From a phage: DNA of 50,828 nucleotides. The notes under the pieces were generated by a model that was not told where the DNA came from, searched no databases, and was given only the letters and a program-made list of their open reading frames with translations. Shown piece by piece: positions 20,690 to 50,828 of the stretch; positions within the stretch are counted from its first letter, which is position 1, and the number at the start of each line of letters is the position of its first letter. Made by a program: the position numbers and the translations under genes. Where the stretch lies: sequence record PZ452605.1, one strand, 5' to 3'.

Positions 20690-20738
20690 TACTCCTTAGT
20701 TGTTGTTGGCTGCAACTATACACGATCTTGGGCATCGC

Positions 20739-20757
20739 GTTTAGCAAAAAGTGCTAT
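20739..20757 (-). repeat. intergenic motif copy (variant) in cor-exonuclease control region
   Basis: GTTTAGCAAAAAGTGCTAT. Confidence 0.5.
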
Positions 20758-21125
20758 TTGTTATTTTTGTTTTCCGGTGTTATAGAATTTAAGACGGCGT
20801 AAATTTAGCGCAAATTTTAGACAACATAAGATCAATAAACAATCAATAAAATAGATATATACATATAAAATCAATAGTTTATTTATTTATGTATGTATAT
20901 TTGTTTTTTCTTGTTATCTTCGTTTCTTGTGGTTTTGGTTGTTTGTGGTGATTTTTCTTTCTGAGTATCTGTATATGCCATCATTCATGTGTATTTATAT
21001 AATCCGGCGTACCTGAGAGAACAGGGGAACAAGAAAAATAACACATATTAATCATTAACTTATGAGTCAAATCTGTTTTCTTGCCATCTGAGAACGTTTA
21101 GAAAACAGAAAAAACAAAACAGCTA

Positions 21126-21153
21126 TTGACTAAATCAACCAAATGGCTACAAT
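21126..21153 (+). promoter_or_regulatory. sigma70-like promoter (TTGACT-16-TACAAT)
   Basis: near-consensus -35 and -10 with 16-nt spacer, 30 nt upstream of exonuclease ATG. Confidence 0.55.
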
Positions 21154-21183
21154 GCACGCATAAAGCAACAAGGAGCATTAAAG

Positions 21184-24321: not shown

Positions 24322-24496
24322 CTTATTGTCAACATCAGTAGTTGATGCTTTTCCTGCAACATCCTGTTTTAGTGTCGAAACATCACTTTTCAGCTTCGTT
24401 ATATCACCAGGAATAGTAGCAACATCCTGTTTTAGTGTTGAAACATCATTTTTCAGCCTTCGTTATATCACTAGGTATAACAGTTACTGTAGCCAT
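24322..24496 (-). other. out-of-frame N-terminal segment of the fibre gene (ATG 24496 with AAGGAG RBS)
   Basis: ATG at 24496 encodes MATVTVIPSDITK then stops; one extra nucleotide near 24458 in repeat copy B separates it from the downstream frame. Confidence 0.45.
24356..24483. repeat. two tandem copies of a 63-bp coding repeat
   Basis: copy A 24356-24418 and copy B 24419-24483 differ by one C-to-T change and one inserted C (cagcttcg versus cagccttcg). Confidence 0.8.
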
Positions 24497-24508
24497 TTTC
24501 CTAACTCC

Positions 24509-24787
24509 TTAAGCCCATTCTCTAATCGGCTGATCTAACTCAACCACGTAGCCATTAAAAATTACGGCATCAAACTCATCATCAATGATTCGCACATTAA
24601 CGAAATAGCCGTCGTTCTTTCGCGCAATCTCCTCGCCATCGTCAGATCGTGCAATTACTGTATAAGTATTGCCGATTACATCGAGCAGGATTGCATCCTG
24701 AATGGATTCGTTATCATCCCAATTAATTTTTCCTAAAAAGGCCGAAAACTCGGCCTTGTCTGCAAATTTTAATGTTAAATCACGCAT
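24509..24787 (-). CDS. hypothetical protein between the two fibre genes
   Basis: 92 aa from ATG overlapping the upstream stop (TAATG). Confidence 0.4.
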   Translation of the reverse strand: MRDLTLKFADKAEFSAFLGKINWDDNESIQDAILLDVIGNTYTVIARSDDGEEIARKNDGYFVNVRIIDDEFDAVIFNGYVVELDQPIREWA

Positions 24788-26749
24788 TAAACAATTTCCC
24801 CCAATTGATGATCTGTTAGCGCCTTGTGCCATATACGGAAGTTTCTAACGTGCCCGAAAAGATGGCGTTCGCCTGTACTTATTGGTCCGCCAATCCTTAT
24901 AGTAGCCGTCGATCTTATGTATCTCCATTCCGTTTTTGTTTCGCTTGATATTCTGGCATTACTTACACAGCAATTATTGTAATCACTCTTTACTCTCATT
25001 CCCATGATCATCTTTTTTAGTTTCGCATTCTCGTAAACCCTTCGGTTTGAGTTACCTATATCGCAACAAGGGAATCCGTCATTATCTCCCTCAGCAGACC
25101 CAAAAGCAAGAATAATTGCCGCTCCGGTCTGATGGCCTCCTGTATCAAAAACACGCGGTGCTGCGTTTGGCGTTATACTCCAGTTTTTATGAGCTTCCAC
25201 AAGCACTGTAAAAGGCAAATTGTAAAGGTTGTTTTTTATTGGCAATGTAACCATATCGCTTGCTCTTGTTGTTGGCGTACCATTAGAGATAATAAACGAT
25301 GATGCACATGTTCCAAGCTCAATTTGTGGTGTAGCTAGCGTAATCGTTGAATCTTCATAAAATGGCTCTTTGCTAATCTTGTTAGCAAAAAAGAAAGAAC
25401 AGTTTATAGCGTTGCGATCAGCGTCTGCCGTGTATGTCACTTCAAAATAAAGCCATTCTCCGCGCTGTTCAACTTTTGATCTAATGAGATTGGTTTGACC
25501 GCTTACTGAAGCTGTTACTGAATCAAAGTCTAGATATGCGTCTGCCGAAAAAACGTCAGCACCACCATCCCCAGCATAAGCCACTCTCGCACGGAGTCTG
25601 CACTTGCTACCTTTGGCACGACAAGAAAAAGTGAAACTTTCACCGCTAAGTAGATTAAACCTATCTCTGGTGGCAACAGTGATTATAGTGTATCCGCCTG
25701 TTGTCCCTATGATATCATTAGTCGGCGATACTGTTGCGTAGTTGAAGTTAAAGTTGTCGCTACCAAACTCTTTATTTAGTGATGCGTGTATAGACCACGA
25801 CTGCGGATTATTTGAGTTTAACAGATAATTAGTTCTCTGCCCCTCAATCAGCAATCCTTCGCGTTCAAAACGTGGCTCATTAATACCAGCCACAGTTAAA
25901 ACACCTGATTTGTTAATGTAAGTAGCAGTGCTTGCGCGTGAGAAAGAAACGACTTTATCTGATGATATTGTTTTTTCTTCCCCATCAATGGTTACTTTTT
26001 TAGTGCCTTGTCCGTAGCCCGTGATCATATCTAGAGAATCGTTAAACGGGATCCACACGTCAGGCAGAGGCTGCAATAAATCTTTGTAAGGTTCTGCGGC
26101 CTGCTTTGCGTATTCCTCCGCTTGATCTCTAGCACTTTCAGCACCTGTCTTTGCGGCATTCGCAGCATCACGCGCAGTTTCAGCGCCTTTTCTTGCAGTT
26201 CCAGCGCCAGTCTTTGCGGTATTTGCAGCGTCACGCGCGGATTCAGCGGCAGCCTTTGCAGTATCAGCACCTTTCTTGCTATTCTCTGCATTTGTTGCGC
26301 TTGTCTTTGCGTTATTCTCGCTAGTTTTAGCTGCCTTCTGGCTTGCTGCGGCTGCGTCAGCATTTGTCTTTACGTCTTTCTGGATCTTCTGTAGCTTATC
26401 CCAATCAAAATCCTTGATGATCTCAATAAATCCAGCAAACTCCGATTCCTTCCCCTGGTAATAACGCAACGTTTCCGCTACGTCTTGCGCAAGACCGTCA
26501 ACCGTTAACGAGTCATGAAGCAAGATCAGGTAATTTGTCTTCTGGACTACCGCGCCGCCAGTAGTAATTGCGCGAATGCTTGTATCGCTAATCACTTCCG
26601 TAATCACAGCAGCTTGCAAAGGTTGAGCAAGAAAGAAAATAGTTGCACCTGGGCGAATCAAGGTTAATTGCTCACGCCATTTTGTACCGTAACCAGTTAC
26701 ATAACCTTGCGCGTCCATAGACGCTTGGCCTTGTCTGTAAATCGCCATT
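24787..26749 (-). CDS. side tail fibre protein (Stf-like)
   Basis: about 650 aa; Ala/Thr/Lys-rich AKTSENNAKTSATNAENSKK repeats like lambda Stf; beta-rich C-terminal domain; AGGAGG RBS. Confidence 0.7.
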
Positions 26750-26766
26750 TGTAAAATCCTCCTAAA

Positions 26767-26786
26767 TAGCACTTTTTGCTAATGAC
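26767..26786 (+). repeat. intergenic motif copy abutting RBS of minus-strand fibre gene
   Basis: ATAGCACTTTTTGCTAATGA; inverted relative to the fibre gene. Confidence 0.55.
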
Positions 26787-26854: not shown

Positions 26855-27784
26855 TTATAGCAGTGATTCGGGCTTGTAGAGTTTTCTTTCTACGCCCTGT
26901 TTAAAATTATCGTTAACAGGCATCATTATGTCAAGCCCTCTTTCCTCTGCCGCGATTATCACATCACGATCATCTTTCCGGCAGACTACGCGCATTCTTC
27001 TTTCTCCTTTATATCTATGCGCAACCATTTCAAGATTTGAAGGAGTAAAACAGGCCCACACCTCTTGACCAGTTGATAAATGAACATGCTGAGAATCAAC
27101 CCAATCAAGGCACAAATAGATCGTCTTATCTGTGCTACCTGTTTTAACAACAGATCCGCGCGTGTAGTCGCGAGCTAAAAACCAATCCTTTCCATCCTCA
27201 TCAATGAAAAGCACGTTACACATTTCATCATCCAGCCCGTCATCATGCACCAGGTGACAAGGTAGCGCGTGAATGTATCGACCATCCTTGACGCCGCAAT
27301 CATAATGACAATCTTCCGGCGGATATATCCCTTCATAAACACTTAAAGGTGTGCGATCGAATTTTAATGTTTTTGCCATCACTTTTTCGCAGCATTCATG
27401 ACTTGCCTGTTTCCCGAACGAGTAACCAGAAGAACGCGAAGCGCGTTTGTTTGCTCTGATCCTGTAATCCTGCGGCACTTTTCCGAGGAAGCGGCCCAAA
27501 ATGTTGATGGCCTCGCTGTAAGGTTCGCCAGTTAATTTCATTAACCAACCGATCCCCGTGTCGTTGCCGCATACGTTGCAGATCGCGCCGCCGTCGCCCT
27601 CTTCATTTAGCTTATCAGTCCATCTAAAACGATCCTTACCGCCGCAGTGTGGGCAAGGTTGATGCTTTTTGTTGAAAACATCGCTATGCAGTCCACAAAT
27701 GCTTTGTAGTGCTTCACGCCATAACCCCTTCATATATGGCAAAACATCTTCTTTCTGATAGGTCATAAAGTTTTCAGTATTCAT
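26855..27784 (-). CDS. DNA primase (zinc-ribbon + TOPRIM type)
   Basis: CPHCGGKDRFRW zinc-binding motif and second CNVCG motif; acidic DxD-type region. Confidence 0.65.
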   Translation of the reverse strand: MNTENFMTYQKEDVLPYMKGLWREALQSICGLHSDVFNKKHQPCPHCGGKDRFRWTDKLNEEGDGGAICNVCGNDTGIGWLMKLTGEPYSEAINILGRFLGKVPQDYRIRANKRASRSSGYSFGKQASHECCEKVMAKTLKFDRTPLSVYEGIYPPEDCHYDCGVKDGRYIHALPCHLVHDDGLDDEMCNVLFIDEDGKDWFLARDYTRGSVVKTGSTDKTIYLCLDWVDSQHVHLSTGQEVWACFTPSNLEMVAHRYKGERRMRVVCRKDDRDVIIAAEERGLDIMMPVNDNFKQGVERKLYKPESLL

Positions 27785-27839
27785 GGCAAACCTCAATAAA
27801 AAAGCCCAGCAAATATTATCATTTCGCTGAGCCTTATCA

Positions 27840-28316
27840 TTAGCTATTTGTGCTGTTATCACCTTTGTAGAATCGTCCGCCTGGTTCGTAGTCTGAATTT
27901 TTGACTACGCGCAACATCTCGTATTTGTCGCAACGGGTAGTAAGAGGCTTACCGTTAGAATCAAACCGCAGATCTGGACGACAAAATGATGCGCGGTATC
28001 CTTTGCATCCATTATATTTGTAGTCGTTATGCACCTTTTGTGCTCCAGCGGCTGAAATCATACCACGCTTTCGCCATTGGTTAACGACTTGCTGAGATAC
28101 GCGTAGACGTCGAGCCATAGCAGGAACACCGCCATAATACTCGATCAGAATATCCAAGCGAGATTTCAGGCTTGCTTTTACCTCATCTCGCAGGATAAGA
28201 AATCCGGTTCGGTGTTTTCGTGGCTTTTTGTCTTTACCTCGTCGCGTTCCGTTGTTACCGTTAATAGTGCGCTTGTCGATCTCACCCGTAGACACCGCAA
28301 TTCGTGCATCTTTCAT
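27840..28316 (-). CDS. HTH DNA-binding protein (Cro/YdaS-like)
   Basis: YGGVPAMARRLRVSQQVVNQWRKRG helix-turn-helix signature; Cys-containing C-terminal extension. Confidence 0.5.
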   Translation of the reverse strand: MKDARIAVSTGEIDKRTINGNNGTRRGKDKKPRKHRTGFLILRDEVKASLKSRLDILIEYYGGVPAMARRLRVSQQVVNQWRKRGMISAAGAQKVHNDYKYNGCKGYRASFCRPDLRFDSNGKPLTTRCDKYEMLRVVKNSDYEPGGRFYKGDNSTNS

Positions 28317-35150: not shown

Positions 35151-35341
35151 TCCATACGCTTTACCGTAACCAGTAATACACCATCATCATTGCATAAAAC
35201 ATGTTCAGTGGTGCTAAAAGCGCGCATATCTGAATAAAGTAGCGTAAGTAAAGCATGAATAAAATCCTCATGTGATATTGAATTTACGGCGCAGTGCTTC
35301 AAGATCTTGTCTATTAGCTTTTGCCTGGAACAATTCATCAT
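35147..35341 (-). CDS. hypothetical protein (start uncertain)
   Basis: 64-aa ORF overlapping upstream gene by 74 nt. Confidence 0.25.
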   Translation of the reverse strand: MMNCSRQKLIDKILKHCAVNSISHEDFIHALLTLLYSDMRAFSTTEHVLCNDDGVLLVTVKRME

Positions 35342-35663
35342 CGCCCATCTCCCCTATTCTAGCCATATCCCTGATCCAGTCGTTGCGCATACCATCCAGG
35401 CTATAAAATTCGAATCCGAAAGGCCGCTTTGACGATCCTTTGGACCAGTATTTACCGCAGACCCCATCTATATAGCCAGCCGTCATCATTCTTGCGCAAA
35501 ATTCCTTAGATGCAAGGCTGGCGAACATTCGCGGCGTAAGTCCGGCGGCCCGTGCGAGCCGCTCACATTCTCTATGCTGATAGATAAATTTGGCTATGTG
35601 CTGCCTGTTAAACCAGTCGTATGACTCACACCATTTATACAGATCAAGCAAAAACATAATCAT
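35268..35663 (-). CDS. hypothetical protein
   Basis: 131-aa ORF, start overlaps upstream stop. Confidence 0.4.
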   Translation of the reverse strand: MIMFLLDLYKWCESYDWFNRQHIAKFIYQHRECERLARAAGLTPRMFASLASKEFCARMMTAGYIDGVCGKYWSKGSSKRPFGFEFYSLDGMRNDWIRDMARIGEMGDDELFQAKANRQDLEALRRKFNIT

Positions 35664-37240
35664 CCCAGCAGTATTGGATTGACAAAAATAACACCATTAA
35701 TCACACAAACATAATTTCTTTCTTCCAGCATTGGCAGCAAGTGCCCTTCTATCCTCTTCATTACGCCAGCCTGACCAACGAAAGGTTTTACCTTTCTCGC
35801 TGATTCGTACAGGGCGCGAATATTCAGGATCCCTTTGTTAGCCTTGCCGTGCCTCGTGATCAATTCAATCAATTTACCCATTTCAGCATCATCACCAGCA
35901 TAACCAGAAGCATTGGCGGCGCTAATGTATGTTTTGCTCAACTCCTGAAACATGATCAGAGCCTCTTGCATTGTATCTACGTCGATCTCTTTCGACTTCT
36001 GCGGGTATCCAGCAGGATTAAACCAGTTGCGTATAACATGCAGGACGGAAGCAAGCCTGATCACCTGTTTATCCATTTTACCCAGCGCACCGCGTAACAT
36101 TGTATGAGAATACTTTCCTCCGTCTGCAAGATGCGGTTCCATATCCTGGCGAGCAATGTTGAGCACTCGCATAGCTGAACGGCTTATTTTCAGCGATATA
36201 TTTGATTCGCCCATGATGTTATGCACCAATTGATAATATTGGGCTTTCAATTCAGAATCCACCGCCTCATAGGTAGAATCACCATTTTCATCAATGAATG
36301 AGCGACGGCCTAAGAATGATTCCTCGCGGACCAACAAAAAACGCTCACTAACACCGATGCCTCGCGATCCAGCGTCCATTATTCCGCTTATCGTTTCATC
36401 CTGGGCTATAACGCTCATACATCCAAGCGCGCGAAAACTCATATTATTGTCAGCATTAGCGCGGGCAATTGATACGTGACCATTATCCCACGCCTTAAGC
36501 ACTAACTCACTGTTAGTCTTCCTTTCGCTATTTGCATAGGTCAAGCCTAACAGACTGTTAATACTTGTTGCTTCATCAGATATTACGGCAAAGTTACCTT
36601 GCTTGTTGTTGATTTTCGCCAAGCCTTCTGGAGTTGTATCTGAAACAGGAAAAGTTATATCACACATTTTTTCCAGCTTTTCCTCCAGATCCTCTTTTTC
36701 CTGGTATAGAGATTCCATATCAGCGCCGGATCTTTCGCTTTTCATCTCCTTTGCAAGACCTGCCAGCTTTGCCTGTATTTTCTTTCTTTCCTTGCGGCGT
36801 TGCTCGTTGATCTTCTCAACTTCCGCAATCATCGGAGCAATAGCCATGCTGTTGATCGCAGATTTACCAGTTGACGGCGGCTGGCTTGTAACGACGTAAA
36901 GCGCAGTCGGCTGATCGGTTCCGTGATAGTCAACCGTAAAGCGTCCAAGCATAGCGGCAGAAATGCAGCCGATAAAGTGCATGTAAGCCGATGATTCAGG
37001 GAATTGAACGGATCGCGCAATGCTGCGTGATAACTTGCCGACAACATCAATATCATTACCAAGAGAAATAACGGGGTAGCGATCGTGACCGCTATTCACA
37101 TCCTTTACGTCGCCCCAAAAGCTGGACGACTGGCGATAGCCGTTAGCCTGAATTGATACGCGAACTGGTGAGAGGTTCTGGCTTTCAGCCATAGCGATTA
37201 TTTGCTGTGGAGTTAATTTGTTCGTTTCTAATGAAAACAT
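35660..37240 (-). CDS. DUF3987-like P-loop NTPase
   Basis: 526 aa; P-loop-like VVTSQPPSTGKSA; largest protein of the early leftward cluster. Confidence 0.45.
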   Translation of the reverse strand: MFSLETNKLTPQQIIAMAESQNLSPVRVSIQANGYRQSSSFWGDVKDVNSGHDRYPVISLGNDIDVVGKLSRSIARSVQFPESSAYMHFIGCISAAMLGRFTVDYHGTDQPTALYVVTSQPPSTGKSAINSMAIAPMIAEVEKINEQRRKERKKIQAKLAGLAKEMKSERSGADMESLYQEKEDLEEKLEKMCDITFPVSDTTPEGLAKINNKQGNFAVISDEATSINSLLGLTYANSERKTNSELVLKAWDNGHVSIARANADNNMSFRALGCMSVIAQDETISGIMDAGSRGIGVSERFLLVREESFLGRRSFIDENGDSTYEAVDSELKAQYYQLVHNIMGESNISLKISRSAMRVLNIARQDMEPHLADGGKYSHTMLRGALGKMDKQVIRLASVLHVIRNWFNPAGYPQKSKEIDVDTMQEALIMFQELSKTYISAANASGYAGDDAEMGKLIELITRHGKANKGILNIRALYESARKVKPFVGQAGVMKRIEGHLLPMLEERNYVCVINGVIFVNPILLG

Positions 37241-38927: not shown

Positions 38928-39040
38928 CGCATAACTCCCTTAATAACAGCCAAGATAATGGCCAGGCCAGCAGCAGTAACCAAAAATCCAACCGCGCCAA
39001 TAATCGAATAAAAAAATAAATCAATAGCTTTATCTATCAT
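38924..39040 (-). CDS. small hydrophobic membrane peptide
   Basis: 38 aa MIDKAIDLFFYSIIGAVGFLVTAAGLAIILAVIKGVMR; GAGGTG RBS; ATGA overlap with next gene; below ORF-track size cutoff. Confidence 0.3.
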   Translation of the reverse strand: MIDKAIDLFFYSIIGAVGFLVTAAGLAIILAVIKGVMR

Positions 39041-39082
39041 TTTCCACCTCATTTAAAAGGCGGCAAAACGCCGCCAGATTAA

Positions 39083-39310
39083 TTAAAGAGCGCGCCAACT
39101 TTGAATATAGAAAGCGTTTTCTTCCAGTAATTCTTTTACCTGATCTTTATTGTATTTGCGCACCTTACCGCCTGGATGGATACCAATAAGATAGCCGCCT
39201 TTGCCCTCTGTGATAGTGATTTGGCTAATTCCGCAGGACTTATCAAGTTTTACAGCCACGCGGTGATGAGCGTCAATAGTTGCCATAATGTTTAAAACTT
39301 TTGCTTTCAT
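39083..39310 (-). CDS. hypothetical protein
   Basis: 75-aa ORF. Confidence 0.4.
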   Translation of the reverse strand: MKAKVLNIMATIDAHHRVAVKLDKSCGISQITITEGKGGYLIGIHPGGKVRKYNKDQVKELLEENAFYIQSWRAL

Positions 39311-39466
39311 TTAAATATCCTCAATTGAAATATGAATGACGTGGCGCTCTTTTTCCGTCGCCGCCGTAATGGTCATTTGCAACCGCCACCATCCAAGCGT
39401 TTTTGAAAATAAATAGCCTCATTTCTTATTTTCAGCTTAAATTTATGGCCTGGAACACCAGCGCCA

Positions 39467-39748
39467 TTATGCGATCCCAGTTACGTTAAAACTTACAGCC
39501 TTTGTTGCGCTAAATACATAAGCATCAACAGCGCCGCAAAATACACGAATTTTACCCTGGCCGTACTGCGCATTCATATTTCGCCAAACCGTTCTATTAG
39601 AGCAGAATGCGCTACCAGTCTTAATAAGCATATCCATCTCTTTTCTTAGATCGCGATAGTCAAGCCAGAATCTAAAGGCGCGCTGTTTAATTCGCGCCGC
39701 CTTGATTTTTTCTCTTGCGCTATTGAAATCATTCTTTTCGTATGCCAT
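39467..39748 (-). CDS. hypothetical protein
   Basis: 93-aa basic ORF. Confidence 0.4.
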   Translation of the reverse strand: MAYEKNDFNSAREKIKAARIKQRAFRFWLDYRDLRKEMDMLIKTGSAFCSNRTVWRNMNAQYGQGKIRVFCGAVDAYVFSATKAVSFNVTGIA

Positions 39749-39945
39749 TAAATGATCTCCATGTATGTTTCAAAGCCATTTAACTTGAACAGGCCGTTTT
39801 CACATTTGCGCACGTTCCAAGTTAGCCCTGAGTGGTACGCCTCCATATCATCAAGGTCAATGGTGATTTCAGCACCTTTCTTAAACAAACCTTTTTCGTG
39901 AGACTTGTCGCGCTTAACAACTTTAACATCAACCTGATTTTCCAT
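39748..39945 (-). CDS. hypothetical protein
   Basis: 65-aa ORF; start follows motif-hairpin-leader element. Confidence 0.4.
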   Translation of the reverse strand: MENQVDVKVVKRDKSHEKGLFKKGAEITIDLDDMEAYHSGLTWNVRKCENGLFKLNGFETYMEII

Positions 39946-39999
39946 CTTTAAATCCTCGTTTGTTGTCGATGCGCTTACTATACCAATCAGCAGCGCATC

Positions 40000-40020
40000 G
40001 TTTTTAACAAAAAGTGCTAT
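40000..40020 (-). repeat. intergenic motif copy, co-directional (minus)
   Basis: ATAGCACTTTTTGTTAAAAAC right after stop TAA. Confidence 0.65.
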
Positions 40021-40281
40021 TTAGTTCAGAAATTCGATTTCACGCTCTCCAGTTAGCGGATCTACAAGCCAGAATCCGAGCGGTTCGTGAGCACCGCCAT
40101 AGAATCCAAGCGCCGCCAGATCTTCACCTTTAACGAATACCAGATTTCCGCTACGGCTTACGTGAGACACGTTAACGATAACCGGAAATGTGCGATCCTT
40201 AAATGCAGGCCGCAGGGCGTAACATCCGTTATTGAGCAAACGTGCTTTGCGCTTAACTGGAATAGGTGCATTAATTTTCAT
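40021..40281 (-). CDS. hypothetical protein
   Basis: 86 aa; AAGGAG RBS 8 nt upstream. Confidence 0.45.
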   Translation of the reverse strand: MKINAPIPVKRKARLLNNGCYALRPAFKDRTFPVIVNVSHVSRSGNLVFVKGEDLAALGFYGGAHEPLGFWLVDPLTGEREIEFLN

Positions 40282-40293
40282 GGTTATTACTCC

Positions 40294-40506
40294 TTATCGT
40301 AAAGATTTAAAGACGTATAGTTTATTGCGGTAACTATATATCCGCATTGTTATTTCTCGCAGTGCAATATATTCCTTCCTGTTTTCCGGCATACTGGCGA
40401 GCAATAACAGGCAGTATTTATAAGCGCGGTCAAGATTTCTTTCCGTGCCCCTGCAATATCCCTTGTTGCGCCTGGAGCGGCACAGCCATAACAATTTCTT
40501 GAACAT
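40294..40506 (-). CDS. hypothetical basic Cys/Arg-rich protein (uncertain)
   Basis: 70 aa from internal ATG coupled to upstream stop (TGAAATG); composition is unusual. Confidence 0.2.
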   Translation of the reverse strand: MFKKLLWLCRSRRNKGYCRGTERNLDRAYKYCLLLLASMPENRKEYIALREITMRIYSYRNKLYVFKSLR

Positions 40507-40507
40507 T

Positions 40508-40717
40508 TCAGATCCGCCCATACAGATCGCAAACTTCGTTGATAAAACAGCGTTGAGACTCTTTATCCTGCTTCTCAAACATCGCACGGCACTCATAGCG
40601 GTGATTATGCACGATGACAACAACCATATTTTCAGGCGCTGACGGGTGACGCGCGGAAGCGTCGCAGATTGAAACATCCATACCCATCTCATGTGCTTTC
40701 TTGATCACATCCAACAT
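40508..40717 (-). CDS. hypothetical protein
   Basis: 69 aa from ATG with GGAG RBS. Confidence 0.35.
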   Translation of the reverse strand: MLDVIKKAHEMGMDVSICDASARHPSAPENMVVVIVHNHRYECRAMFEKQDKESQRCFINEVCDLYGRI

Positions 40718-40971
40718 TTTTTCTTCTCCTGCAATAAGCAAACATCATTGATAAAATCAGTACGGCCCTTAATGTTGCTGATGTGGAACGTCTTTTCAGC
40801 GTACAGGCCATCACCTTCAATCACGATCATTACGCGAGTCGGTTTATTCACGGGCGCACGAGAAAAGGGTTGGCGCACCGGAAGAAATTTAGTAGCCACA
40901 TCCAGGTTAGCCCTGGCGGCCCTGCAAAACACCTCCGCCAGATCCAAATCATTTTCGGTAATCACCGCCAT
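40705..40971 (-). CDS. hypothetical protein
   Basis: 88-aa ORF. Confidence 0.4.
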   Translation of the reverse strand: MAVITENDLDLAEVFCRAARANLDVATKFLPVRQPFSRAPVNKPTRVMIVIEGDGLYAEKTFHISNIKGRTDFINDVCLLQEKKKCWM

Positions 40972-41243
40972 TACTTCTTGATCTCCTCACTGATAAATTT
41001 CAGCACCTGACGCAAGAAAACTTCGTTGTTGATAGTCGCTGGCAATTCTTCTTTCACTTCTTGCGGCAGATAGATATTGCCGTGCCAGGTCAAGCAATCG
41101 TAGTTAATACGATAAGAGCAAAGCCACTCGCAATCGTTATCTGCTTCCCATATGCAGAGTTGCAGAACATCGCCAAAATCTTCAACAGTCAGATCCAGAC
41201 CGTGACGCTTAGCGAAATTGAAAGTGGTTTTGCTGATGTTCAT
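40971..41243 (-). CDS. hypothetical acidic protein
   Basis: 90-aa ORF with GGAG RBS after motif-hairpin-leader. Confidence 0.4.
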   Translation of the reverse strand: MNISKTTFNFAKRHGLDLTVEDFGDVLQLCIWEADNDCEWLCSYRINYDCLTWHGNIYLPQEVKEELPATINNEVFLRQVLKFISEEIKK

Positions 41244-41302
41244 TTACTATCTCCTGAGCGGTTCGTTTCGATGGGATAACTATACCAGGTTATCCCGATC
41301 AG

Positions 41303-41322
41303 CTTTTAACAAAAAGTGCTAT
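41303..41322 (-). repeat. intergenic motif copy, co-directional (minus)
   Basis: ATAGCACTTTTTGTTAAAAG right after stop TAA. Confidence 0.65.
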
Positions 41323-41625
41323 TTATTGTTTTGCGTGGCGCTCAATGTAAGCGCGGATAGTTTCAGCGGTGTCTTTCGCAGATCCAAACGTGCCCTTTAC
41401 ATGGCGAGCGTCGCGGTAAGCCTGGAAGAATTTACGCGCGATATTTGCAAACATTGCACCAGTAACGCGAGCGTCGCCAAAATTTGTTTCAATGGCATTG
41501 CTGATGCCGTCCTGGAATTCATGCTCAGTCATGAACAGTTCAGCCATTTCTGCTGTTTCGAACAGGTCAGCCAGTGCTGCCATATTCTCGTGGTCTTTAG
41601 CGGTGAACAGGTTCATGTTAATCAT
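41323..41625 (-). CDS. hypothetical protein, first gene of early leftward cluster
   Basis: 100 aa from ATG with GAGGA RBS. Confidence 0.45.
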   Translation of the reverse strand: MINMNLFTAKDHENMAALADLFETAEMAELFMTEHEFQDGISNAIETNFGDARVTGAMFANIARKFFQAYRDARHVKGTFGSAKDTAETIRAYIERHAKQ

Positions 41626-41689
41626 TGTTTGGTCCTCATTAAGTGCGGTTCGTTTCGATGTGTGCAATGTACCCGATCAGGCGGCCTGA

Positions 41690-41709
41690 GTTTTAACAAA
41701 AAGTGCTAT
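41690..41709 (-). repeat. intergenic motif copy upstream of first early leftward gene
   Basis: exact 20-mer with no upstream gene; iterons lie just upstream on minus strand. Confidence 0.65.
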
Positions 41710-41740
41710 TTGACGGTTAGCACCAGGATTGCGATCTAAA

Positions 41741-41828
41741 TAATCAAAAGTAATCATTCGTAATCAAATCACGTCAAAATGATGATTGCCTTTGCAAATT
41801 TGATGAGAAAAGTAATCACGTTTAATCA
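41741..41828. repeat. five TAATCA iterons at 10-bp phasing
   Basis: TAATCA at 41741, 41751, 41761, 41813, 41823; in divergent early control region. Confidence 0.6.
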
Positions 41829-42264
41829 TTGGTTGCAGGGGAGATAGTGAAACCTTCCCCTCTTGCCTCACTTTTCCGCCCGGCTGTCAGTGGTTGTTGT
41901 CTTTTGTTCACCCCTGTTACCGATTTCAGGCGGCGTGTTTCCGCGCGGTTTTCCGGTGTAGCGAAAACGGAAAAAACAAAGAAAATCCTCTATAATACAT
42001 TGAAAATAAAGATTATTTATTTATATATATCTATAATGTTTTCTTTTTGTTCTCACTGTTACAGTGCTTTTTGTTGGTTATGGTGTGGTTGTGTGTGGGT
42101 ATATATGGATAGTTGCGCGCGCGGCGGATTGCATATGTATATATACTTTTTCCGGCGGATTGCGTTAACAGCGTGAACAGAAAAATAACAGCCGCGAAAT
42201 CAATAACTTGCGCATGATTTTGTAGTTTTTCGATATTGGTAACGTTTTGAATACAACAAAAACA

Positions 42265-42292
42265 TTGACACGCACCAAATAGCTTTTATAAT
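42265..42292 (+). promoter_or_regulatory. consensus sigma70 promoter (TTGACA-16-TATAAT)
   Basis: perfect -35 and -10 hexamers with 16-nt spacer, 30 nt upstream of ATG 42324. Confidence 0.65.
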
Positions 42293-42323
42293 GCGCCAAC
42301 AGTCAACAACCGGAGGAAAGGAA

Positions 42324-42788
42324 ATGGAACAGAAAACCACTAAGGACTATTGCGATTGGCTTCGCGAGCTTGGTCGCCGCCTGGCTAGTGGAGATATTGA
42401 AGAGTATAAAATGTCACTAATTGACCTTGCCGGAATGTTAAGCGGTGACGACTGCTACAAGATCACGCGCAGTTCATCCTACAGCCGGACCATTATCAAC
42501 CGCGTTCCAGAAGTAAGGGCCGCAGGTCGGGTAAGTATCAAGGTCGAGGAAACGGAAGATGATAAATTTTACGTTTTCCGCATGGTCCGCGAATCGAAAA
42601 GGAAAATCATCACACCCGAAGAATTGCCAGCCATCAAGGCAAGGGCGATCAAAAAGTTTGCCGATCGCTTGCTGGCAGCAATCCCGAATATCGTTGACCT
42701 GGAAGGGGATAAACTGGCTGGAGCTTGTGAGGGCGTAAGCCGCTACCAGGATATGATCCGCGAAATCATCAAAGAGGAAGAGCAATGA
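42324..42788 (+). CDS. hypothetical protein, first gene of early rightward cluster
   Basis: 154 aa from ATG with GGAGG RBS. Confidence 0.45.
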   Translation: MEQKTTKDYCDWLRELGRRLASGDIEEYKMSLIDLAGMLSGDDCYKITRSSSYSRTIINRVPEVRAAGRVSIKVEETEDDKFYVFRMVRESKRKIITPEELPAIKARAIKKFADRLLAAIPNIVDLEGDKLAGACEGVSRYQDMIREIIKEEEQ

Positions 42789-43057
42789 AAAAGGCATTAA
42801 TCAGCGTTTTGGCGGCAATGGCATTCCTGACCGGATGCAAAGAAGATGGCGCGCATGTTGGCAATGTGCAGATGGCTAACCCTGGCGATGACTACAGCGT
42901 AAGGGAGCTATTCACCGCTGACGGTTGCACAGTTTACCGATTCTATGACGATCGCACTGTTTACTTCACCAACTGCAAGGGAACGACTAGCTGGGAAGTG
43001 TCGAAAAGCAATGGCAAAGGCACGAAGACAGAACATATGACCGTCGAAACAAAATAG
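42785..43057 (+). CDS. small lipoprotein (second)
   Basis: 90 aa; signal peptide with lipobox LTGC; two further Cys in mature part. Confidence 0.55.
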   Translation: MKKALISVLAAMAFLTGCKEDGAHVGNVQMANPGDDYSVRELFTADGCTVYRFYDDRTVYFTNCKGTTSWEVSKSNGKGTKTEHMTVETK

Positions 43058-43073
43058 CACTTTTTGTTAAAAC
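43054..43073 (+). repeat. intergenic motif copy, co-directional
   Basis: exact 20-mer containing stop TAG of lipoprotein gene; precedes candidate structured RNA. Confidence 0.65.
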
Positions 43074-43106
43074 TCAAAAGCGATAACCAGGCATAATACA
43101 CACATA

Positions 43107-43262
43107 GACGGGCGGCAAGGATTGCTGCGGGAGAGGAGTAACGCAGGGGCTTGATCGAAGTGTCAGGATTCCCAACCGTGAGGCCAGAACTATCACACTA
43201 GCCACCAGGCAGAACGCTAGATAGGTCACTGAGCTGAGGCTACCGACGAAGTGAAGCCCGTC
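43107..43262 (+). ncRNA. candidate structured RNA / structured 5' leader
   Basis: 155-nt GC-rich ORF-free segment; 7-bp closing helix GACGGGC/GCCCGTC; internal hairpins CTGCG...CGCAG and GCAA-GGA-TTGC. Confidence 0.3.
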
Positions 43263-43299
43263 ACAAAAGATTAAACGATTATTTATGTGAAAGGGGTTA

Positions 43300-43482
43300 A
43301 TGATGGATAAGATCATCAAAATGAGCGAAGTCAAGCCGGGAATGATGGTTAAGTTTGCTGGCAAATATCGCCTAGTGCTGGATAACTGCCGCAAAGAGAA
43401 CATTCTTACCATTCGTGTAAATGGCAAGGCGCAGCTATTCGCCCCTAACGCAGATATTGACGTTGAAGTTAGAATTAAGTAA
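43300..43482 (+). CDS. hypothetical protein
   Basis: 60-aa ORF with GGGG RBS. Confidence 0.35.
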   Translation: MMDKIIKMSEVKPGMMVKFAGKYRLVLDNCRKENILTIRVNGKAQLFAPNADIDVEVRIK

Positions 43483-43497
43483 TTAGGAGGAAACACC

Positions 43498-44391
43498 ATG
43501 TTAAAACTTGCTGACATTAAATTCCCGATCACCTTCGAATCTCGCGGCATTGGTCATTACATTTTTACTGATGAAAAAACATGCCATAAAGTTGATTTGC
43601 ATAGCTACAAGCGTGCTCCATCAGGCATGGAGATTGAACACTTCATTGATGCACATAACAAGCACTACAGCGCACTTAAAGACTATGGCTATGCAATGCC
43701 AGGCTACACATGTTTGCACTACAAGCCATATAAGGGCCAGGTGTTACCAGTGCGCTCACCGGAACGCGCAGAGATTCCGATGGTCAATATGAAAACCTGC
43801 GACTACAAAAAGCTGTGGTGCTTAAGTCTGGACAATATCAAGTATCCGATCACGTTCCACACGACTGGTAAGTCAACGATTCGCTACACATCGCGCGACA
43901 ATGGCGTTTATAGCGATGGCACGAAATCAGAGTTGAAAGTTGATTTCTTTGTTGATGGTCACAATAGATACAATCCACACAACGAAAAAGATAAGGTGTA
44001 CTACGTGGAAGACATTACAAAACACTTATTTGGAGAAACACCATTCGGCGGCGGGAAGACGTCAATTCAGAAAATAATTGGCGAGGAGATCCACAAATCG
44101 GCTAGCGAAATAAAAGCGCCTGGAGGCTGGCGTATTGATAAGAGCGCCTTTGCCAATCAAGAAATCGTAACGCAGGGCGCAATTGAAGACATGCCAGTTG
44201 CAGCCACGCTAAAAGGAGTCCAGCTTGATGATGGTTCATGGTATGAACTAACTGCGAAACCAAAGACGATTGAGATTCATGATGATGCTGTTATCCTTCT
44301 GCTTCACTATGGCAGCGCAAAAAACCGGACTGTTGCGGGTGAGATCAGCATCAAGTGCGGAACGATGGTTAAGTGGAAGGTAAAAGTGTAA
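43498..44391 (+). CDS. hypothetical protein with internal tandem duplication
   Basis: 297 aa; AGGAGG RBS; repeats LADIKFPITFESRG and LDNIKYPITFHTTG. Confidence 0.5.
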   Translation: MLKLADIKFPITFESRGIGHYIFTDEKTCHKVDLHSYKRAPSGMEIEHFIDAHNKHYSALKDYGYAMPGYTCLHYKPYKGQVLPVRSPERAEIPMVNMKTCDYKKLWCLSLDNIKYPITFHTTGKSTIRYTSRDNGVYSDGTKSELKVDFFVDGHNRYNPHNEKDKVYYVEDITKHLFGETPFGGGKTSIQKIIGEEIHKSASEIKAPGGWRIDKSAFANQEIVTQGAIEDMPVAATLKGVQLDDGSWYELTAKPKTIEIHDDAVILLLHYGSAKNRTVAGEISIKCGTMVKWKVKV

Positions 44392-44411
44392 ATAGCACGA
44401 ATTGTTAAAAC
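44392..44411 (+). repeat. intergenic motif copy, co-directional (variant)
   Basis: ATAGCACGAATTGTTAAAAC after stop TAA; TATAAT 18 nt downstream. Confidence 0.6.
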
Positions 44412-44464
44412 TCAAATGTGGGGCCAGGTATAATGGCCTCACTTTCAACGAAGGAGATAAAACG

Positions 44465-44683
44465 ATGTACATTAGCAAGAAGATGAAATGCGTTTCCGTT
44501 GGCTATGGTTGCGCTGGCATGTTTAAGCCTGGCGAAATCTATACGGCGCAAAAAATGAAATCATCAACCGGATCTTTTTACGTGAGCAATAGCAAGGGGC
44601 ATCGCATGTTCCTGAACGGCGGCGAAGGCACTAAGGTTATGGCGCACGCGATGGTAATTGCTGAATTTGAGGAAGTGAAATAA
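44465..44683 (+). CDS. hypothetical protein
   Basis: 72 aa from ATG with GGAG RBS. Confidence 0.4.
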   Translation: MYISKKMKCVSVGYGCAGMFKPGEIYTAQKMKSSTGSFYVSNSKGHRMFLNGGEGTKVMAHAMVIAEFEEVK

Positions 44684-44865
44684 TGGATGATTTTACTCGG
44701 CTTGTTCTAGGCTGGATTGTATTTCTTTTTGCGTGGCTTATCCACTGTGCGAGACATAAATTCAGACTGAGCTATGATAATTCATTCGTTATGACCTGCT
44801 TCAGTTTTCCAGGATGGATCATTTTACTTGGGGCTACTGCTGAATACATCCATAAAACATTTTAA
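44683..44865 (+). CDS. small membrane protein
   Basis: 60 aa, two hydrophobic segments. Confidence 0.4.
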   Translation: MDDFTRLVLGWIVFLFAWLIHCARHKFRLSYDNSFVMTCFSFPGWIILLGATAEYIHKTF

Positions 44866-44875
44866 GGATTAATAT

Positions 44876-45415
44876 ATGAAAAAATACACTTTCGAACTAT
44901 GGGGCAAGAAATACGAATTAATGACCAGCAAGCCGATTGTTATCGTTGATCTGGATGGCACACTATCGGACGGATCGCATCGTTTGCATTTGCTGCCAAC
45001 TGAAAACTTACACCTTACGGAATCGTGGAGCGAATTTAACAGGGCCGCCGCCGGAGATTCACCGATTAAAAGCACGATCGCGGTTATTAACGGTTTATGG
45101 GTGTCGGGATTTGCCATCGTCATCTTGACCGGACGCAGCGACGAGGTGCGCTATGAAACCTGCAAATGGTTGAATGAGAGCGGCGTGAAGTTTGACGAAA
45201 TCATCATGCGCCGCCAGGAGGACAACCGAAAGGATACGGTTATTAAAGAAGAAGCCTTGCGCGCTATTGGCCTGGACAATATTGTTTGCGCCTTTGACGA
45301 TTCGCCGAACGTGGTTAAGCACTTCCGCAGCCTGGGAATCACAACCTATCAGGTCACGGAATACGACAAGCCACACGCTCACCTGCAATCTCACGGCGTG
45401 GAGTGTTTAAAATGA
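44876..45415 (+). CDS. HAD-superfamily phosphatase (nucleotidase / PNK-phosphatase-like)
   Basis: HAD motif I VIVDLDGTLSD; 179 aa. Confidence 0.6.
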   Translation: MKKYTFELWGKKYELMTSKPIVIVDLDGTLSDGSHRLHLLPTENLHLTESWSEFNRAAAGDSPIKSTIAVINGLWVSGFAIVILTGRSDEVRYETCKWLNESGVKFDEIIMRRQEDNRKDTVIKEEALRAIGLDNIVCAFDDSPNVVKHFRSLGITTYQVTEYDKPHAHLQSHGVECLK

Positions 45416-50301: not shown

Positions 50302-50828
50302 ATGGCTAAAAATGTTGAGCCTGCTGTAAAGGCATTAAATTTCAAAGAGTTATACAATAAAACTTATGGCGATATTGTCACGCTAAACAACCGCCACAAG
50401 TACACGCCGGAACAGGTTTTTGATATGGCGATCCGCTATTTCACTTGGGCCGAAGAGAATCACATCCAGGCGGCTGAAACTGCTTCCTTTCAGGGTGACG
50501 TGTACGAGAGCAGAGTTTACAAGCCTCGCGTTTTCACGGTTAACGGATTCAGCTTGTATCTCGGCGTTACCGAGGCGGCTGTAAGCAAGTGGCGTAAAGA
50601 GCCTGGATTCTGCGATGTGATGGAGTTTGTTGATAAAGTAATTTACGAGCAAAAATTCCAGCTTGCGGCAAATAACATGATTAACGCTGGATTTATCGGT
50701 AAAGAGATCGGAGTAGAGAAGCCAGCAACAGTGAGCGTTGAAGCGAGCGCGGCAGCTAATGCAAGCATTGACGCAGTAACTGCCGATGAGGTGAAAGAGG
50801 CTGTGATTGATATTCTGGAGCAACTTTA
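50302..50828 (+). CDS. terS: terminase small subunit (3' end runs off window)
   Basis: GGAGG RBS; open frame to window end; HTH-like N-terminal region typical of small terminases; precedes terL across the window junction. Confidence 0.65.
   Translation, partial: MAKNVEPAVKALNFKELYNKTYGDIVTLNNRHKYTPEQVFDMAIRYFTWAEENHIQAAETASFQGDVYESRVYKPRVFTVNGFSLYLGVTEAAVSKWRKEPGFCDVMEFVDKVIYEQKFQLAANNMINAGFIGKEIGVEKPATVSVEASAAANASIDAVTADEVKEAVIDILEQL

What the first reader, a model, noticed from the sequence alone, without database searches (positions are those of the whole stretch)
41710..42323. Early divergent control region with phased TAATCA iterons and consensus promoter
This 600-bp non-coding region separates the leftward and rightward early clusters. 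It holds three tandem TAATCA repeats at exact 10-bp spacing (41741-41770) and two more (41813, 41823), a GC-rich hairpin (41840-41865), AT-rich and TG-rich blocks, and a perfect TTGACA-16-TATAAT promoter at 42265. Iterons on one helical face suggest cooperative protein binding, so this is a candidate replication origin or operator array. One candidate binding protein is the HTH protein at 27840-28316.
Basis: partly seen in the sequence, partly recalled or inferred. Interest (0 to 1): 0.6.

Follow-up and report, generated by a model that had tools for sequence, protein, structure and literature searches.

The report
T1-type phage packaging-start and early-promoter region
This 696-bp gene-free gap in a T1-like coliphage is the counterpart of the region where phages T1, TLS and MSK start packaging their DNA. 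The phased TAATCA repeats are most likely part of that packaging signal rather than a replication origin, and a strong early promoter sits at the right edge.

Summary
The three TAATCA at exact 10-bp spacing are the only such hexamer triple in the genome. Only the "GC-rich hairpin" is weak.

The window is a whole genome of a T1-like phage (Drexlerviridae, Warwickvirus). The gap 41628-42323 has three parts:
- **Leftward promoter-like unit.** This is one of 18 copies of the family's ATAGCAC...TTGTTAAAAC repeat.
- **A unique segment of about 180 bp.** It holds six helically phased TGATTR sites (five are the TAATCA), the genome-unique motif ATGATGATTG and a conserved G-rich box.
- **A module of about 430 bp.** It ends in the perfect sigma-70 promoter and has a paralogue upstream of recE (20684-21183).

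In relatives, the unique segment is where the packaging (pac) end lies. The evidence is the start of the T1 record and its terminal repeat, TLS restriction mapping, and the MSK read-based terminus.

My best explanation is a pac site flanked by divergent early promoters. The origin/operator reading of the TAATCA array is not supported, and nothing links it to the HTH protein at 27840.

An origin-like architecture does exist in the duplicated AT-rich modules. They carry phased TGTTCAC-type repeats identical to phage P4 origin iterons. This is a lead only.

Interest is moderate.

The parts
41666..41709 (-). Leftward promoter-like unit. Family repeat ATAGCACTTTTTGTTAAAAC at 41709-41690, an 18-nt spacer at 41689-41672, and a -10-like TACATT at 41671-41666. 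The leader and RBS follow, then the ATG at 41627.
   Evidence: It is one of 18 copies in the window with the same layout. This is the same 21-nt repeat described for TLS. The stretch 41645-41715 is 85-93% identical across many Drexlerviridae genera.
41741..41766 (+). Three TAATCA (TGATTA on the - strand) at exact 10-bp spacing. This is the left arm of the phased array.
   Evidence: The array is 96-98% conserved in 61 phage records of the Warwickvirus clade and absent from all others.
41779..41790 (+). ATGATGATTGCC, containing TGATTG at 41783-41788. It lies in the spacer between the two TAATCA arms. The inferred zone of the initiating pac cut is about 41768-41796.
   Evidence: ATGATGATTG is unique in this genome. 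It is also unique in TLS, where it ends 7 nt before the record start, which is the mapped pac. The T1 record start lies at -64 and the TLS start at -76 relative to the conserved G-box. That converts to about 41768-41780 in the window.
41813..41828 (+). Two TAATCA at 10-bp spacing. This is the right arm of the phased array.
   Evidence: All six TGATTR sites of the segment are in helical phase (R 0.95, p about 0.005).
41837..41861 (.). G-rich box with an imperfect inverted repeat. The conserved core ATAGTGAAACC is at 41844-41854.
   Evidence: The sequence box recurs in all ten relatives compared. The hairpin is not better than shuffles.
41895..41942 (+). Left array of the duplicated module: TGTTGTC, TGTTCAC(C) and TGTTACC at exact 10-bp spacing (41895, 41905, 41915), plus TGTTTCC at 41936.
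   Evidence: Analogous arrays occur in both modules of the relatives. TGTTCACC is the annotated type 1 origin repeat of phage P4.
41989..42150 (.). Three adjacent blocks. The first is TATAATACATTGAAAA (41991-42006) with the AT block. The second is the T/G-rich block. The third is a second ATATA block ending in CCGGCG (42152-42157).
   Evidence: This is one of the two most AT-rich stretches of the genome. It is paralogous to 20836-21010. It is conserved at 72-82% across genera.
42164..42210 (-). Right array, inverted relative to the left one: GTTAACAG at 42164, GTGAACAG at 42173, ATAACAG at about 42185. An IHF-consensus-like AATCAATAACTTG follows at 42198-42210.
42265..42292 (+). Rightward early promoter TTGACA-16-TATAAT. 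The expected transcription start is about 42298-42300, the RBS GGAGGA is at 42312-42317, and the ATG is at 42324.
   Evidence: A TTGAC(A/G) -35 is present at the same place in all ten relatives. It is the homologue of TLS P01.
50302..50826 (+). Small terminase (TerS) gene. TerS is the proposed reader of the pac signal.
   Evidence: Pfam PF16677 GP3_package, E 3.8e-11. About 30% identity to P22 gp3. terL follows at 1-1569.

Best explanation
The gap is the packaging-start (pac) and early-transcription region of a T1-type phage that packages its DNA by the headful.

**Transcription**
- Host RNA polymerase starts rightward early transcription at the consensus promoter (42265-42292).
- Leftward transcription starts at the family-specific repeat-type promoter unit (41709-41666).

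**Packaging**
- Between the two promoters lies a segment of about 180 bp (about 41712-41890) that occurs only once in the genome.
- It carries six TGATTR sites on one face of the helix: three TAATCA, then TGATTG inside ATGATGATTG, then two TAATCA. A conserved G-rich box follows.
- I propose that the ring-shaped small terminase (50302-50826) binds or wraps this phased array.
- The large terminase then makes the first cut in or near the spacer between the two TAATCA arms (about 41770-41800, possibly extending to the G-box).
- Packaging then runs rightward through the early genes and the terminase genes, and gives terminally redundant, partly permuted genomes.

**Shown versus inferred**
- Shown: the anatomy, its statistics, its uniqueness in the genome, and the homology of the location to the mapped or declared pac ends of T1, TLS and MSK.
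- Inferred: that the repeats are the terminase recognition elements, and the exact cut position.
For: 1. **Identity of the phage.** The window is a T1-like genome, 98.6% identical to phage tunus/SLUR29 in this region, in the same orientation as the T1 record.
2. **T1.** The record begins inside the homologous gap and annotates bases 1-2800 as the repeat region, i.e. the terminal redundancy.
3. **TLS.** The pac cut was mapped by restriction digests to the homologous gap, and the record starts there.
4. **MSK (another subfamily).** PhageTerm gave a forward terminus at 36,862 (p 1.6e-9). I located it in the homologous gap, between the leftward repeat unit and the AT block, inside a TGATT-rich stretch.
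5. **SU57 paper.** It states that pac lies in this untranslated region in T1-like phages.
6. **Uniqueness.** The right 430 bp of the gap are duplicated at 20684-21183, and the leftward promoter unit occurs 18 times. Only the TAATCA/TGATTR segment is unique, as a single pac site should be.
7. **Phasing.** TGATTR sites sit at similar distances from the conserved G-box in several lineages:
   - window: -103, -93, -83, -61, -31, -21
   - T1: -105, -93, -69, -39, -18
   - TLS: -89, -68, -48, -17

   They are helically phased in the window (R 0.95) and in the TLS group (R 0.97). The T1 and TLS ends fall inside the arrays.
8. **Shared motif.** ATGATGATTG is unique in both the window and TLS genomes, at the equivalent spot.
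9. **Terminase type.** TerS belongs to the P22 gp3 family of headful terminases.
Against: - No packaging data exist for this phage or its close relatives. The link is by homology of position.
- The record starts of other T1-like phages are set by convention after T1, so they are not independent. I could not read how T1 position 1 was fixed.
- The TLS base-level assignment rested partly on resemblance to P22 pac.
- The MSK terminus lies about 80 nt from the TLS-equivalent position.
- Phasing is not significant in T1 (R 0.54), and the TGATTR motif was defined after looking at the data.
- TGATT is not the top enriched word in BEBK14, pSf-1 or TLS. These carry other lineage-specific repeats next to the leftward unit.
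- The test for co-variation of TerS with the repeat type was uninformative.
- Earlier authors proposed the ATATA repeats as the T1 pac motif.
Confidence: 0.55

Rival explanations
1. The TAATCA array is a set of binding sites for a transcription regulator, phage- or host-encoded. The regulator would activate or silence the leftward promoter unit, or switch early transcription off. In other words, it is an operator or activator array.
For: - The array lies 30-60 bp upstream of the leftward unit.
- At the same position other lineages carry different short repeats that look like classical operators. TLS, LL5 and phSE-2 have tandem palindromes AGACCGATTGGTCT. BEBK14, pSf-1 and T1 have inverted TTATTCC/GGAATAA.
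- The phage encodes at least two conserved small DNA-binding-type proteins: a Cro-like HTH at 27840-28316 and a winged-helix protein at 35268-35663.
Against: - The sites overlap no -35 or -10 element.
- They are direct repeats, not dyads.
- None of the other 17 repeat-type promoter units has them.
- No gene's presence or absence tracks the repeat type among five genomes.
- No TAATCA pair lies near the promoters of the candidate regulators.
Confidence: 0.2
2. The TAATCA repeats are origin iterons bound by a phage initiator, for example the HTH protein at 27840-28316. The nearby AT-rich block would be the unwinding element.
For: - The repeats are phased and direct.
- An extremely AT-rich block lies about 220 bp to the right.
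- The origin of T1-like phages is unknown.
Against: - The repeat core is 6-7 bp in 10-bp units, much shorter than typical iterons.
- There are no DnaA boxes.
- The array is clade-specific, while the replication genes and the HTH protein are family-wide.
- The AT block has its own, better conserved flanking repeats (TGTTCAC type), and these are shared with the second module, which lacks TAATCA.
- GC skew only follows transcription direction.
Confidence: 0.1
3. The repeats are a functionless product of replication slippage in a tolerant non-coding stretch.
For: - The array is confined to one closely related clade.
- Among three sequences, six substitutions avoid the hexamers only at P about 0.19, so there is no significant sign of selection.
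Against: - Slippage would duplicate whole 10-bp units, but only the 6-7-bp core is kept while the spacers differ.
- Two more copies sit 52 and 62 bp away in helical phase.
- Related TGATTR sites occupy matching positions in other subfamilies.
Confidence: 0.1

Closest known systems
pac region of coliphages T1 and TLS (Drexlerviridae)
   Same: - Same genomic position: between the leftward and rightward clusters of small early genes, about 8.5 kb upstream of terS-terL.
- Same flanking elements: the leftward 21-nt repeat unit, the G-rich box, the AT block, and the sigma-70 promoter (TLS P01).
- TGATTR-rich segment in all three, and the ATGATGATTG motif shared with TLS.
   Different: - The five-copy TAATCA array with strict 10-bp spacing is specific to the Warwickvirus clade.
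- T1 and TLS have TGATTG/TGATTT sites mostly in the opposite orientation, and other repeats next to the leftward unit.
- No sequence-level definition of pac exists for any member, so there is nothing to match base by base.
pac sites built from phased short repeats flanking the cut: phage P1 pac (TGATCA/G hexamers, four on one side and three on the other) and SPP1 pacL-pacC-pacR. This comparison is from my own knowledge of the literature and was not checked here.
   Same: - Two arms of short repeats (three and two copies) around a central spacer where the cut is expected.
- Helical phasing that suggests wrapping or bending by the recognition protein.
   Different: - The P1 hexamers contain Dam sites that regulate cutting. 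Here GATC is under-represented: 2 sites in 696 bp, none in the hexamers.
- The P1 and SPP1 recognition proteins are unrelated to the gp3-type TerS.
- In P22, the model for this TerS family, pac is a single 22-bp site inside the terS gene.
Phage P4 replication elements ori and crr
   Same: This applies to the adjacent duplicated modules, not to the TAATCA array.
- There are two separate cis elements.
- Each carries TGTTCAC(C)-type octamers in tandem at 9-11 bp, in both orientations, next to AT-rich DNA.
- The phage primase aligns with the primase domain of P4 alpha (E 2e-14).
   Different: - No homologue of the alpha helicase domain or of its C-terminal origin-binding domain was found.
- There is no significant sequence similarity of the modules to P4 ori or crr beyond the iteron pair (4 of 200 shuffles at best).
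- Other T1-like genera use different variants: TGTTATC, TGTTCGC, TGTTACA.
- Replication function is untested.

Membership tests
pac site of a headful-packaging phage (T1/TLS type) | The unique end of mature virion DNA maps to the site. | not testable with these tools
   There are no reads or digests for this phage. By homology, the T1 record start and terminal repeat, the TLS restriction-mapped pac and the MSK PhageTerm terminus all fall in the equivalent segment.
pac site of a headful-packaging phage (T1/TLS type) | The phage encodes a headful-type terminase with a small subunit. | tested here: met
   TerS matches PF16677 GP3_package and is about 30% identical to P22 gp3. TerL at 1-1569 is 64% identical to T1 TerL.
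pac site of a headful-packaging phage (T1/TLS type) | The signal occurs once per genome. | tested here: met
   The TAATCA triple is the only hexamer triple in the genome. ATGATGATTG is unique. The rest of the gap is repeated elsewhere.
pac site of a headful-packaging phage (T1/TLS type) | The small terminase binds the site specifically. | not testable with these tools
   The co-variation test was uninformative. TerS at 95% identity or more occurs in 61 records, and the array also occurs in 61 records. I did not check that they are the same records, and those phages are about 97% identical genome-wide.
Iteron-type replication origin (lambda ori, plasmid and P4 type) | Several direct repeats of initiator-binding length next to an AT-rich unwinding element. 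| tested here: inconclusive
   - TAATCA array: a 6-7-bp core, 220 bp from the AT block, so it does not fit.
- TGTTNNC / GNNAACA arrays at 41895-41942 and 42164-42191: these flank the AT block and do fit the layout.
Iteron-type replication origin (lambda ori, plasmid and P4 type) | An initiator gene containing or adjoining the origin, or a demonstrable initiator with matching specificity. | tested here: not met
   - The flanking genes are a DUF7174 protein and small proteins of unknown function.
- The primase, helicase and HTH genes lie at 26.8-30.4 kb.
- No homologue of the P4 alpha origin-binding domain was found.
Iteron-type replication origin (lambda ori, plasmid and P4 type) | Host initiator boxes (DnaA), where the origin depends on the host. 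| tested here: not met
   There is no TTWTNCACA, nor a relaxed version of it, in the gap.
Repressor/operator control region (lambda OR type) | Operators overlap the promoter hexamers, have dyad symmetry, and adjoin the regulator gene. | tested here: not met
   The TAATCA sites are direct repeats, overlap no hexamer, and no HTH gene flanks the gap.
Sigma-70 promoter | -35 and -10 hexamers at 16-18 bp spacing, upstream of a gene and conserved in relatives. | tested here: met
   It matches 12 of 12 at 42265-42292, 31 nt before the ATG. TTGAC(A/G) with a -10-like hexamer is present at the same place in nine of the ten relatives; in T1 only the -35 is clear. It is listed as P01 in TLS. Activity has not been tested.

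The most novel reading that the evidence does not exclude
The two paralogous AT-rich modules are 41890-42260 here and 20760-21120 upstream of recE. They may be the long-sought replication origins of T1-like phages, working as a two-element system like ori plus crr of phage P4.

- Each module has the most AT-rich DNA of the genome.
- That DNA is flanked by inverted, roughly 10-bp-phased arrays of TGTTCAC-type repeats, the P4 alpha iteron.
- A split P4-like replication set would read these repeats: the alpha-like primase, the DUF3987 ATPase, and the winged-helix protein 35268-35663 or the Cro-like protein 27840-28316.
- In this reading pac and one origin sit side by side.
Probability: 0.25. Interest if true: 0.65.

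Novelty: new member of a known kind. Interest (0 to 1): 0.38.

Why it matters
T1-like phages are common laboratory and industrial contaminants, generalized transducers, and candidates for phage therapy. Even so, neither their pac signal nor their origin has been defined at sequence level.

If the phased TGATTR array is the terminase recognition element, three things follow:
- a concrete, mutable target for controlling packaging and transduction in this family;
- a rule for orienting the hundreds of deposited genomes;
- an example of a gp3-type small terminase reading a multi-site array far from its own gene.

The duplicated AT-rich modules give a directly testable candidate for the unknown origins.

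Tried and rejected
- **Known RNA families.** The Rfam scan of 41000-43000 found nothing near threshold.
- **Hairpin as terminator.** The fold is not better than shuffles and has no T-run. The small terminator-like stem at 42054-42066 is not conserved in relatives.
- **GC skew for an origin.** It only mirrors gene orientation.
- **DnaA boxes.** None found. There is a single IHF-like site.
- **Coding potential of the gap.** The 115-aa ORF at 41829-42176 is low-complexity, and its region is replaced in JK16.
- **TerS co-variation with repeat type.**
  - TerS is the most diverged of the proteins compared (66% against 91% for TerL in BEBK14).
  - BEBK14 is diverged genome-wide, and JK16 is about 97% identical genome-wide.
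  - Type-2 repeat carriers (BEBK14, pSf-1, T1) do not share a TerS type.
  - Result: uninformative.
- **Gene presence or absence tracking repeat type.** None found.
- **Record ends of other phages as evidence for pac.** Discarded, because authors orient genomes after T1. The XY3 record is simply circular.
- **Fishing relatives from IMG/VR.**
  - The flanking protein gave 2 loci.
  - A 15-nt AT-rich pattern gave unrelated contigs.
- **Literature searches.** The searches for T1 transcriptomes and for TGTTCACC returned nothing useful. The T1 and Rtp genome papers are not held.
- **Homology of the modules to P4 ori and crr.** Not significant beyond an iteron pair.
- **Structure of the HTH protein 27840-28316.** The single-sequence model was too poor to use (pLDDT 36).
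- **Fold search of the 35268-35663 protein.** It gives a generic winged helix only, with no specific match to an origin-binding domain.

Full report
**What the window is.** The region 41600-42400 is 98.6% identical to Escherichia phages tunus and SLUR29, and 97-99% identical to about 45 other records of the Warwickvirus group (Drexlerviridae, Tempevirinae). The window is a whole T1-like genome opened at terL (1-1569). terS is the last gene (50302-50826; Pfam GP3_package). Its orientation matches the T1 record: gap, rightward small genes, terS, terL.

**Checking the observation.**
- The gap is 41628-42323 (696 bp), between a leftward gene (ATG 41627) and a rightward DUF7174 gene (ATG 42324).
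- TAATCA sits at 41741, 41751, 41761, 41813 and 41823.
- The triple at period 10 is the only identical-hexamer triple at any period from 7 to 14 in the genome. It appears in 2 of 300 Markov-simulated genomes.
- TTGACA-16-TATAAT at 42265-42292 is the only 12/12 sigma-70 match in the genome.
- The AT block is one of the two most AT-rich stretches of the genome at every window size tried.
- The "hairpin" (41837-41861) folds no better than shuffled sequence and has no T-run.
- No Rfam family, DnaA box or convincing ORF is present.

**Anatomy: three layers of different uniqueness.**
1. *Leftward promoter-like unit, 41709-41666 on the - strand.*
   - It is a copy of ATAGCACTTTTTGTTAAAAC, then an 18-nt spacer, then a -10-like hexamer (TACATT), then a leader and RBS.
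   - It is one of 18 such units in the window.
   - This is the 21-nt direct repeat described for TLS, whose function is still open. It explains why 41645-41715 is 85-93% identical in many genera.
2. *The right 430 bp or so (about 41890-42323).*
   - It is paralogous to a second divergent gap at 20684-21183, between a small leftward lipoprotein gene (in the position of T1's Cor gene) and recE.
   - The order of elements is the same in both: a left array of TGTTNNC, GGCGT, TATAAT-like, AT block, T/G-rich block, a second ATATA block, CCGGCG, an inverted array GNNAACA, an IHF-like site, an A-rich stretch, and a strong sigma-70 promoter (TTGACT-16-TACAAT at 21126).
   - Distant-genus BLAST hits of the AT block often land in the recE-side copy.
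   - In TLS these two promoters, plus one for the HTH-primase operon, are the only three sigma-70 promoters predicted.
3. *The segment about 41712-41890.* Only this part is unique in the genome. It holds the TAATCA repeats, ATGATGATTGCC, TTTGATGAG and the G-rich box.

**Comparison across ten relatives from six genera.**
- All share the order: left gene, repeat unit, variable short repeats, TGATT-rich stretch, G-box (ATAGTGAAAC-like), then the module.
- Next to the repeat unit, lineages differ:
  - window, FritzSarasin and JK16 carry TAATCA x3;
  - BEBK14, pSf-1 and T1 carry inverted TTATTCC/GGAATAA;
  - TLS, phSE-2 and LL5 carry a tandem palindrome AGACCGATTGGTCT.
- Closer to the G-box every genome has TGATTG/TGATTA sites, at similar distances from the box:

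| Genome | Site positions relative to the G-box |
|---|---|
| window | -103, -93, -83, -61, -31, -21 |
| T1 | -105, -93, -69, -39, -18 |
| TLS | -89, -68, -48, -17 |
| phSE-2 | -101, -90, -69, -49, -18 |

- The sites are in helical phase in the window (R 0.95 at 10.4 bp, p about 0.005) and in the TLS group (R 0.97). They are not in phase in T1 (R 0.54).
- The motif was chosen after inspection, so these p-values are indicative only.
- The 127-bp TAATCA segment is 96-98% identical in exactly 61 records and is absent from all others.

**Why pac.**
- The T1 record starts inside the homologous gap and marks bases 1-2800 as the repeat region, i.e. the terminal redundancy.
- The TLS pac cut was placed by restriction mapping in the homologous gap, and the record starts there.
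- The SU57 paper states that pac lies in this untranslated region in T1-like phages.
- Independently of these conventions, PhageTerm placed a forward terminus of phage MSK (Braunvirinae) at 36,862. In the MSK sequence that base lies in the homologous gap, about 150 nt right of the repeat unit. It is inside a TGATT-rich stretch (CAATGATG...TGATTGTTGC, GTGAGTGAGTG) and left of the AT block.
- The T1 and TLS starts lie at -64 and -76 from the G-box, inside the TGATTR arrays. That converts to about 41768-41796 in the window, which is the spacer between the three-copy and two-copy TAATCA arms.
- ATGATGATTG, in that spacer, is unique in the window genome. It is also unique in TLS, where it ends 7 nt before the record start.
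- A signal that must be unique in the genome, located where three relatives start packaging, and built of phased repeats around a central spacer, fits a terminase recognition site better than any alternative.

**Limits of that inference.**
- Other records' ends follow the T1 convention, so they add nothing.
- I could not read how T1 position 1 was fixed.
- TLS's final base assignment leaned on P22 similarity.
- The MSK and TLS positions differ by about 80 nt.
- Co-variation of TerS with the array could not be separated from common descent.
- No accessory gene tracks the repeat type.
- According to the MSK paper, Wietzorrek et al. proposed five ATATA repeats as the T1 pac motif. My finding that the ATATA block is duplicated upstream of recE argues against it as the unique signal, but does not exclude a role.

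**A lead from lambda.**
- From memory, Drexler (J Virol 1984) mapped a site where T1 starts packaging lambda DNA between genes P and Q. I could not retrieve the paper.
- In lambda 39000-45000 the best local match to the TLS pac segment is ATGATGATTGATG at 43458-43470, an identical 13-mer. It also shares AAATGATGATTG, 12 bases, with the window.
- That match is flanked by TTAATCAC (43410), GTTAATCAC (43492) and GTTAATCA (43593).
- The chance expectation for such a 13-mer is about 0.03. This is suggestive only.

**The origin and operator readings.**
- The TAATCA array fails the features of an iteron origin. It has a short core, no adjacent initiator gene and no DnaA boxes. It is clade-specific, while the replication genes are family-wide.
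- It also fails the features of an operator. There is no overlap with promoter hexamers, no dyad symmetry and no flanking regulator gene.
- The protein at 27840-28316 is a Cro-like HTH upstream of the primase. Nothing connects it to TAATCA.
- The duplicated modules, by contrast, do look origin-like:
  - they contain the two most AT-rich stretches of the genome;
  - these are flanked by TGTTGTC/TGTTCAC/TGTTACC at exact 10-bp spacing (41895-41921), and by inverted GTTAACAG/GTGAACAG/ATAACAG (42164-42191).
- TGTTCACC is the annotated type 1 origin repeat of phage P4. There it occurs in tandem at 9-11 bp, in both orientations, in two separate elements, ori and crr.
- Exact TGTTCAC is enriched in the modules of the window (2 of 5 genomic copies, p 0.006) and of TLS (4 of 8, p 6e-5). 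Other genera use variants.
- The phage primase aligns with the primase domain of P4 alpha (E 2e-14), but no alpha helicase or origin-binding domain is found.
- The modules show no significant overall similarity to P4 ori or crr.
- In JK16 the right half of module B was replaced while module A was not, so the two copies do not evolve in concert.
- I therefore rate "modules A and B are origins" as a lead, at about 0.25.

**Verdict.**
- The TAATCA array is best explained as part of the pac signal of a T1-type phage. It is a new member, with a lineage-specific repeat pattern, of a region known at low resolution in T1 and TLS.
- Interest is moderate. It would rise if the array is shown to be the TerS target, or if the duplicated modules prove to be the origins.

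Noticed in passing
window 20684-21183: This is a second divergent non-coding gap, between a small leftward lipoprotein gene (20456-20683, in the position of T1's Cor gene) and recE (21184). It is paralogous to the right 430 bp of the finding region and has the same order of blocks. It ends in TTGACT-16-TACAAT at 21126. Both copies are conserved across Drexlerviridae genera. I found no description of this duplication in the papers I could read.
   Followed up: partly
window 41895-41942 and 42164-42191; also 21017-21031: TGTTGTC, TGTTCAC(C) and TGTTACC lie at exact 10-bp spacing left of the AT block. Inverted GTTAACAG, GTGAACAG and ATAACAG lie right of it. TGTTCACC is the annotated type 1 origin iteron of phage P4, and the window primase (26855-27862) is homologous to the P4 alpha primase domain.
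   Followed up: partly
window, 18 sites (e.g. 1566, 20757, 28328, 30818, 31889, 35150, 37985, 40020, 41322, 41709, 43054, 46881, 48176): The family repeat ATAGCACTTTTTGTTAAAAC is usually followed by an 18-nt spacer, often a dyad or hairpin, and then a -10-like hexamer. The TTGTTA part sits 22 nt from the -10, too far for a normal -35. This suggests a non-canonical promoter class or an activator site. At least one copy (6209) is antisense to the surrounding late genes.
   Followed up: partly
window 35268-35663 (- strand): This small protein is encoded directly after the DUF3987 ATPase (35660-37240). It has no Pfam match but models confidently as a winged-helix protein. It is a second candidate DNA binder besides the Cro-like HTH at 27840-28316.
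   Followed up: partly
phage lambda NC_001416 43410-43600 (locus L148): The ninI gene of lambda contains ATGATGATTGATG, the same 13-mer as next to the TLS pac end. TAATCAC-type sites flank it. From memory, T1 starts packaging lambda DNA at a site between P and Q, so this could be that site.
   Followed up: partly
window 41244-41627 (gene 41323-41627, - strand, with its own repeat unit at 41322): This gene and its promoter-like unit are absent from FritzSarasin, JK16, BEBK14 and pSf-1. In those phages the homologue of 40971-41243 is the first leftward gene. It looks like a moron-type insertion next to the gap.
   Followed up: partly
JK16 locus L008 1450-1862, compared with window 41890-42323: In the JK16 subgroup, which is otherwise about 97% identical genome-wide, the right half of the gap was replaced by a pSf-1-like version with GATAACA repeats. 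The TAATCA segment stayed 97.6% identical. This is a sharp mosaic boundary at about 41890.
   Followed up: partly
phage records MG0656xx ('Campylobacter phage' A118, C4, A120 and others): Seventeen to 22 records labelled as Campylobacter jejuni phages carry T1-like sequences, with TerS 72% identical and matching repeat units. They are probably T1-like coliphage contaminants or carry wrong host labels.
   Followed up: no
pSf-1 NC_021331 25054-25524: The annotated small terminase of pSf-1 matches the window TerS only over its first 100 residues and then diverges into low-complexity sequence. This looks like a frameshift in the record.
   Followed up: no
window 24356-24457: Two 39-nt direct repeats, 95% identical and 63 bp apart, lie in a stretch where no ORF of 120 aa or more is listed (24322-24786), upstream of the - strand ORF 24787-26772. 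I did not examine them.
   Followed up: no
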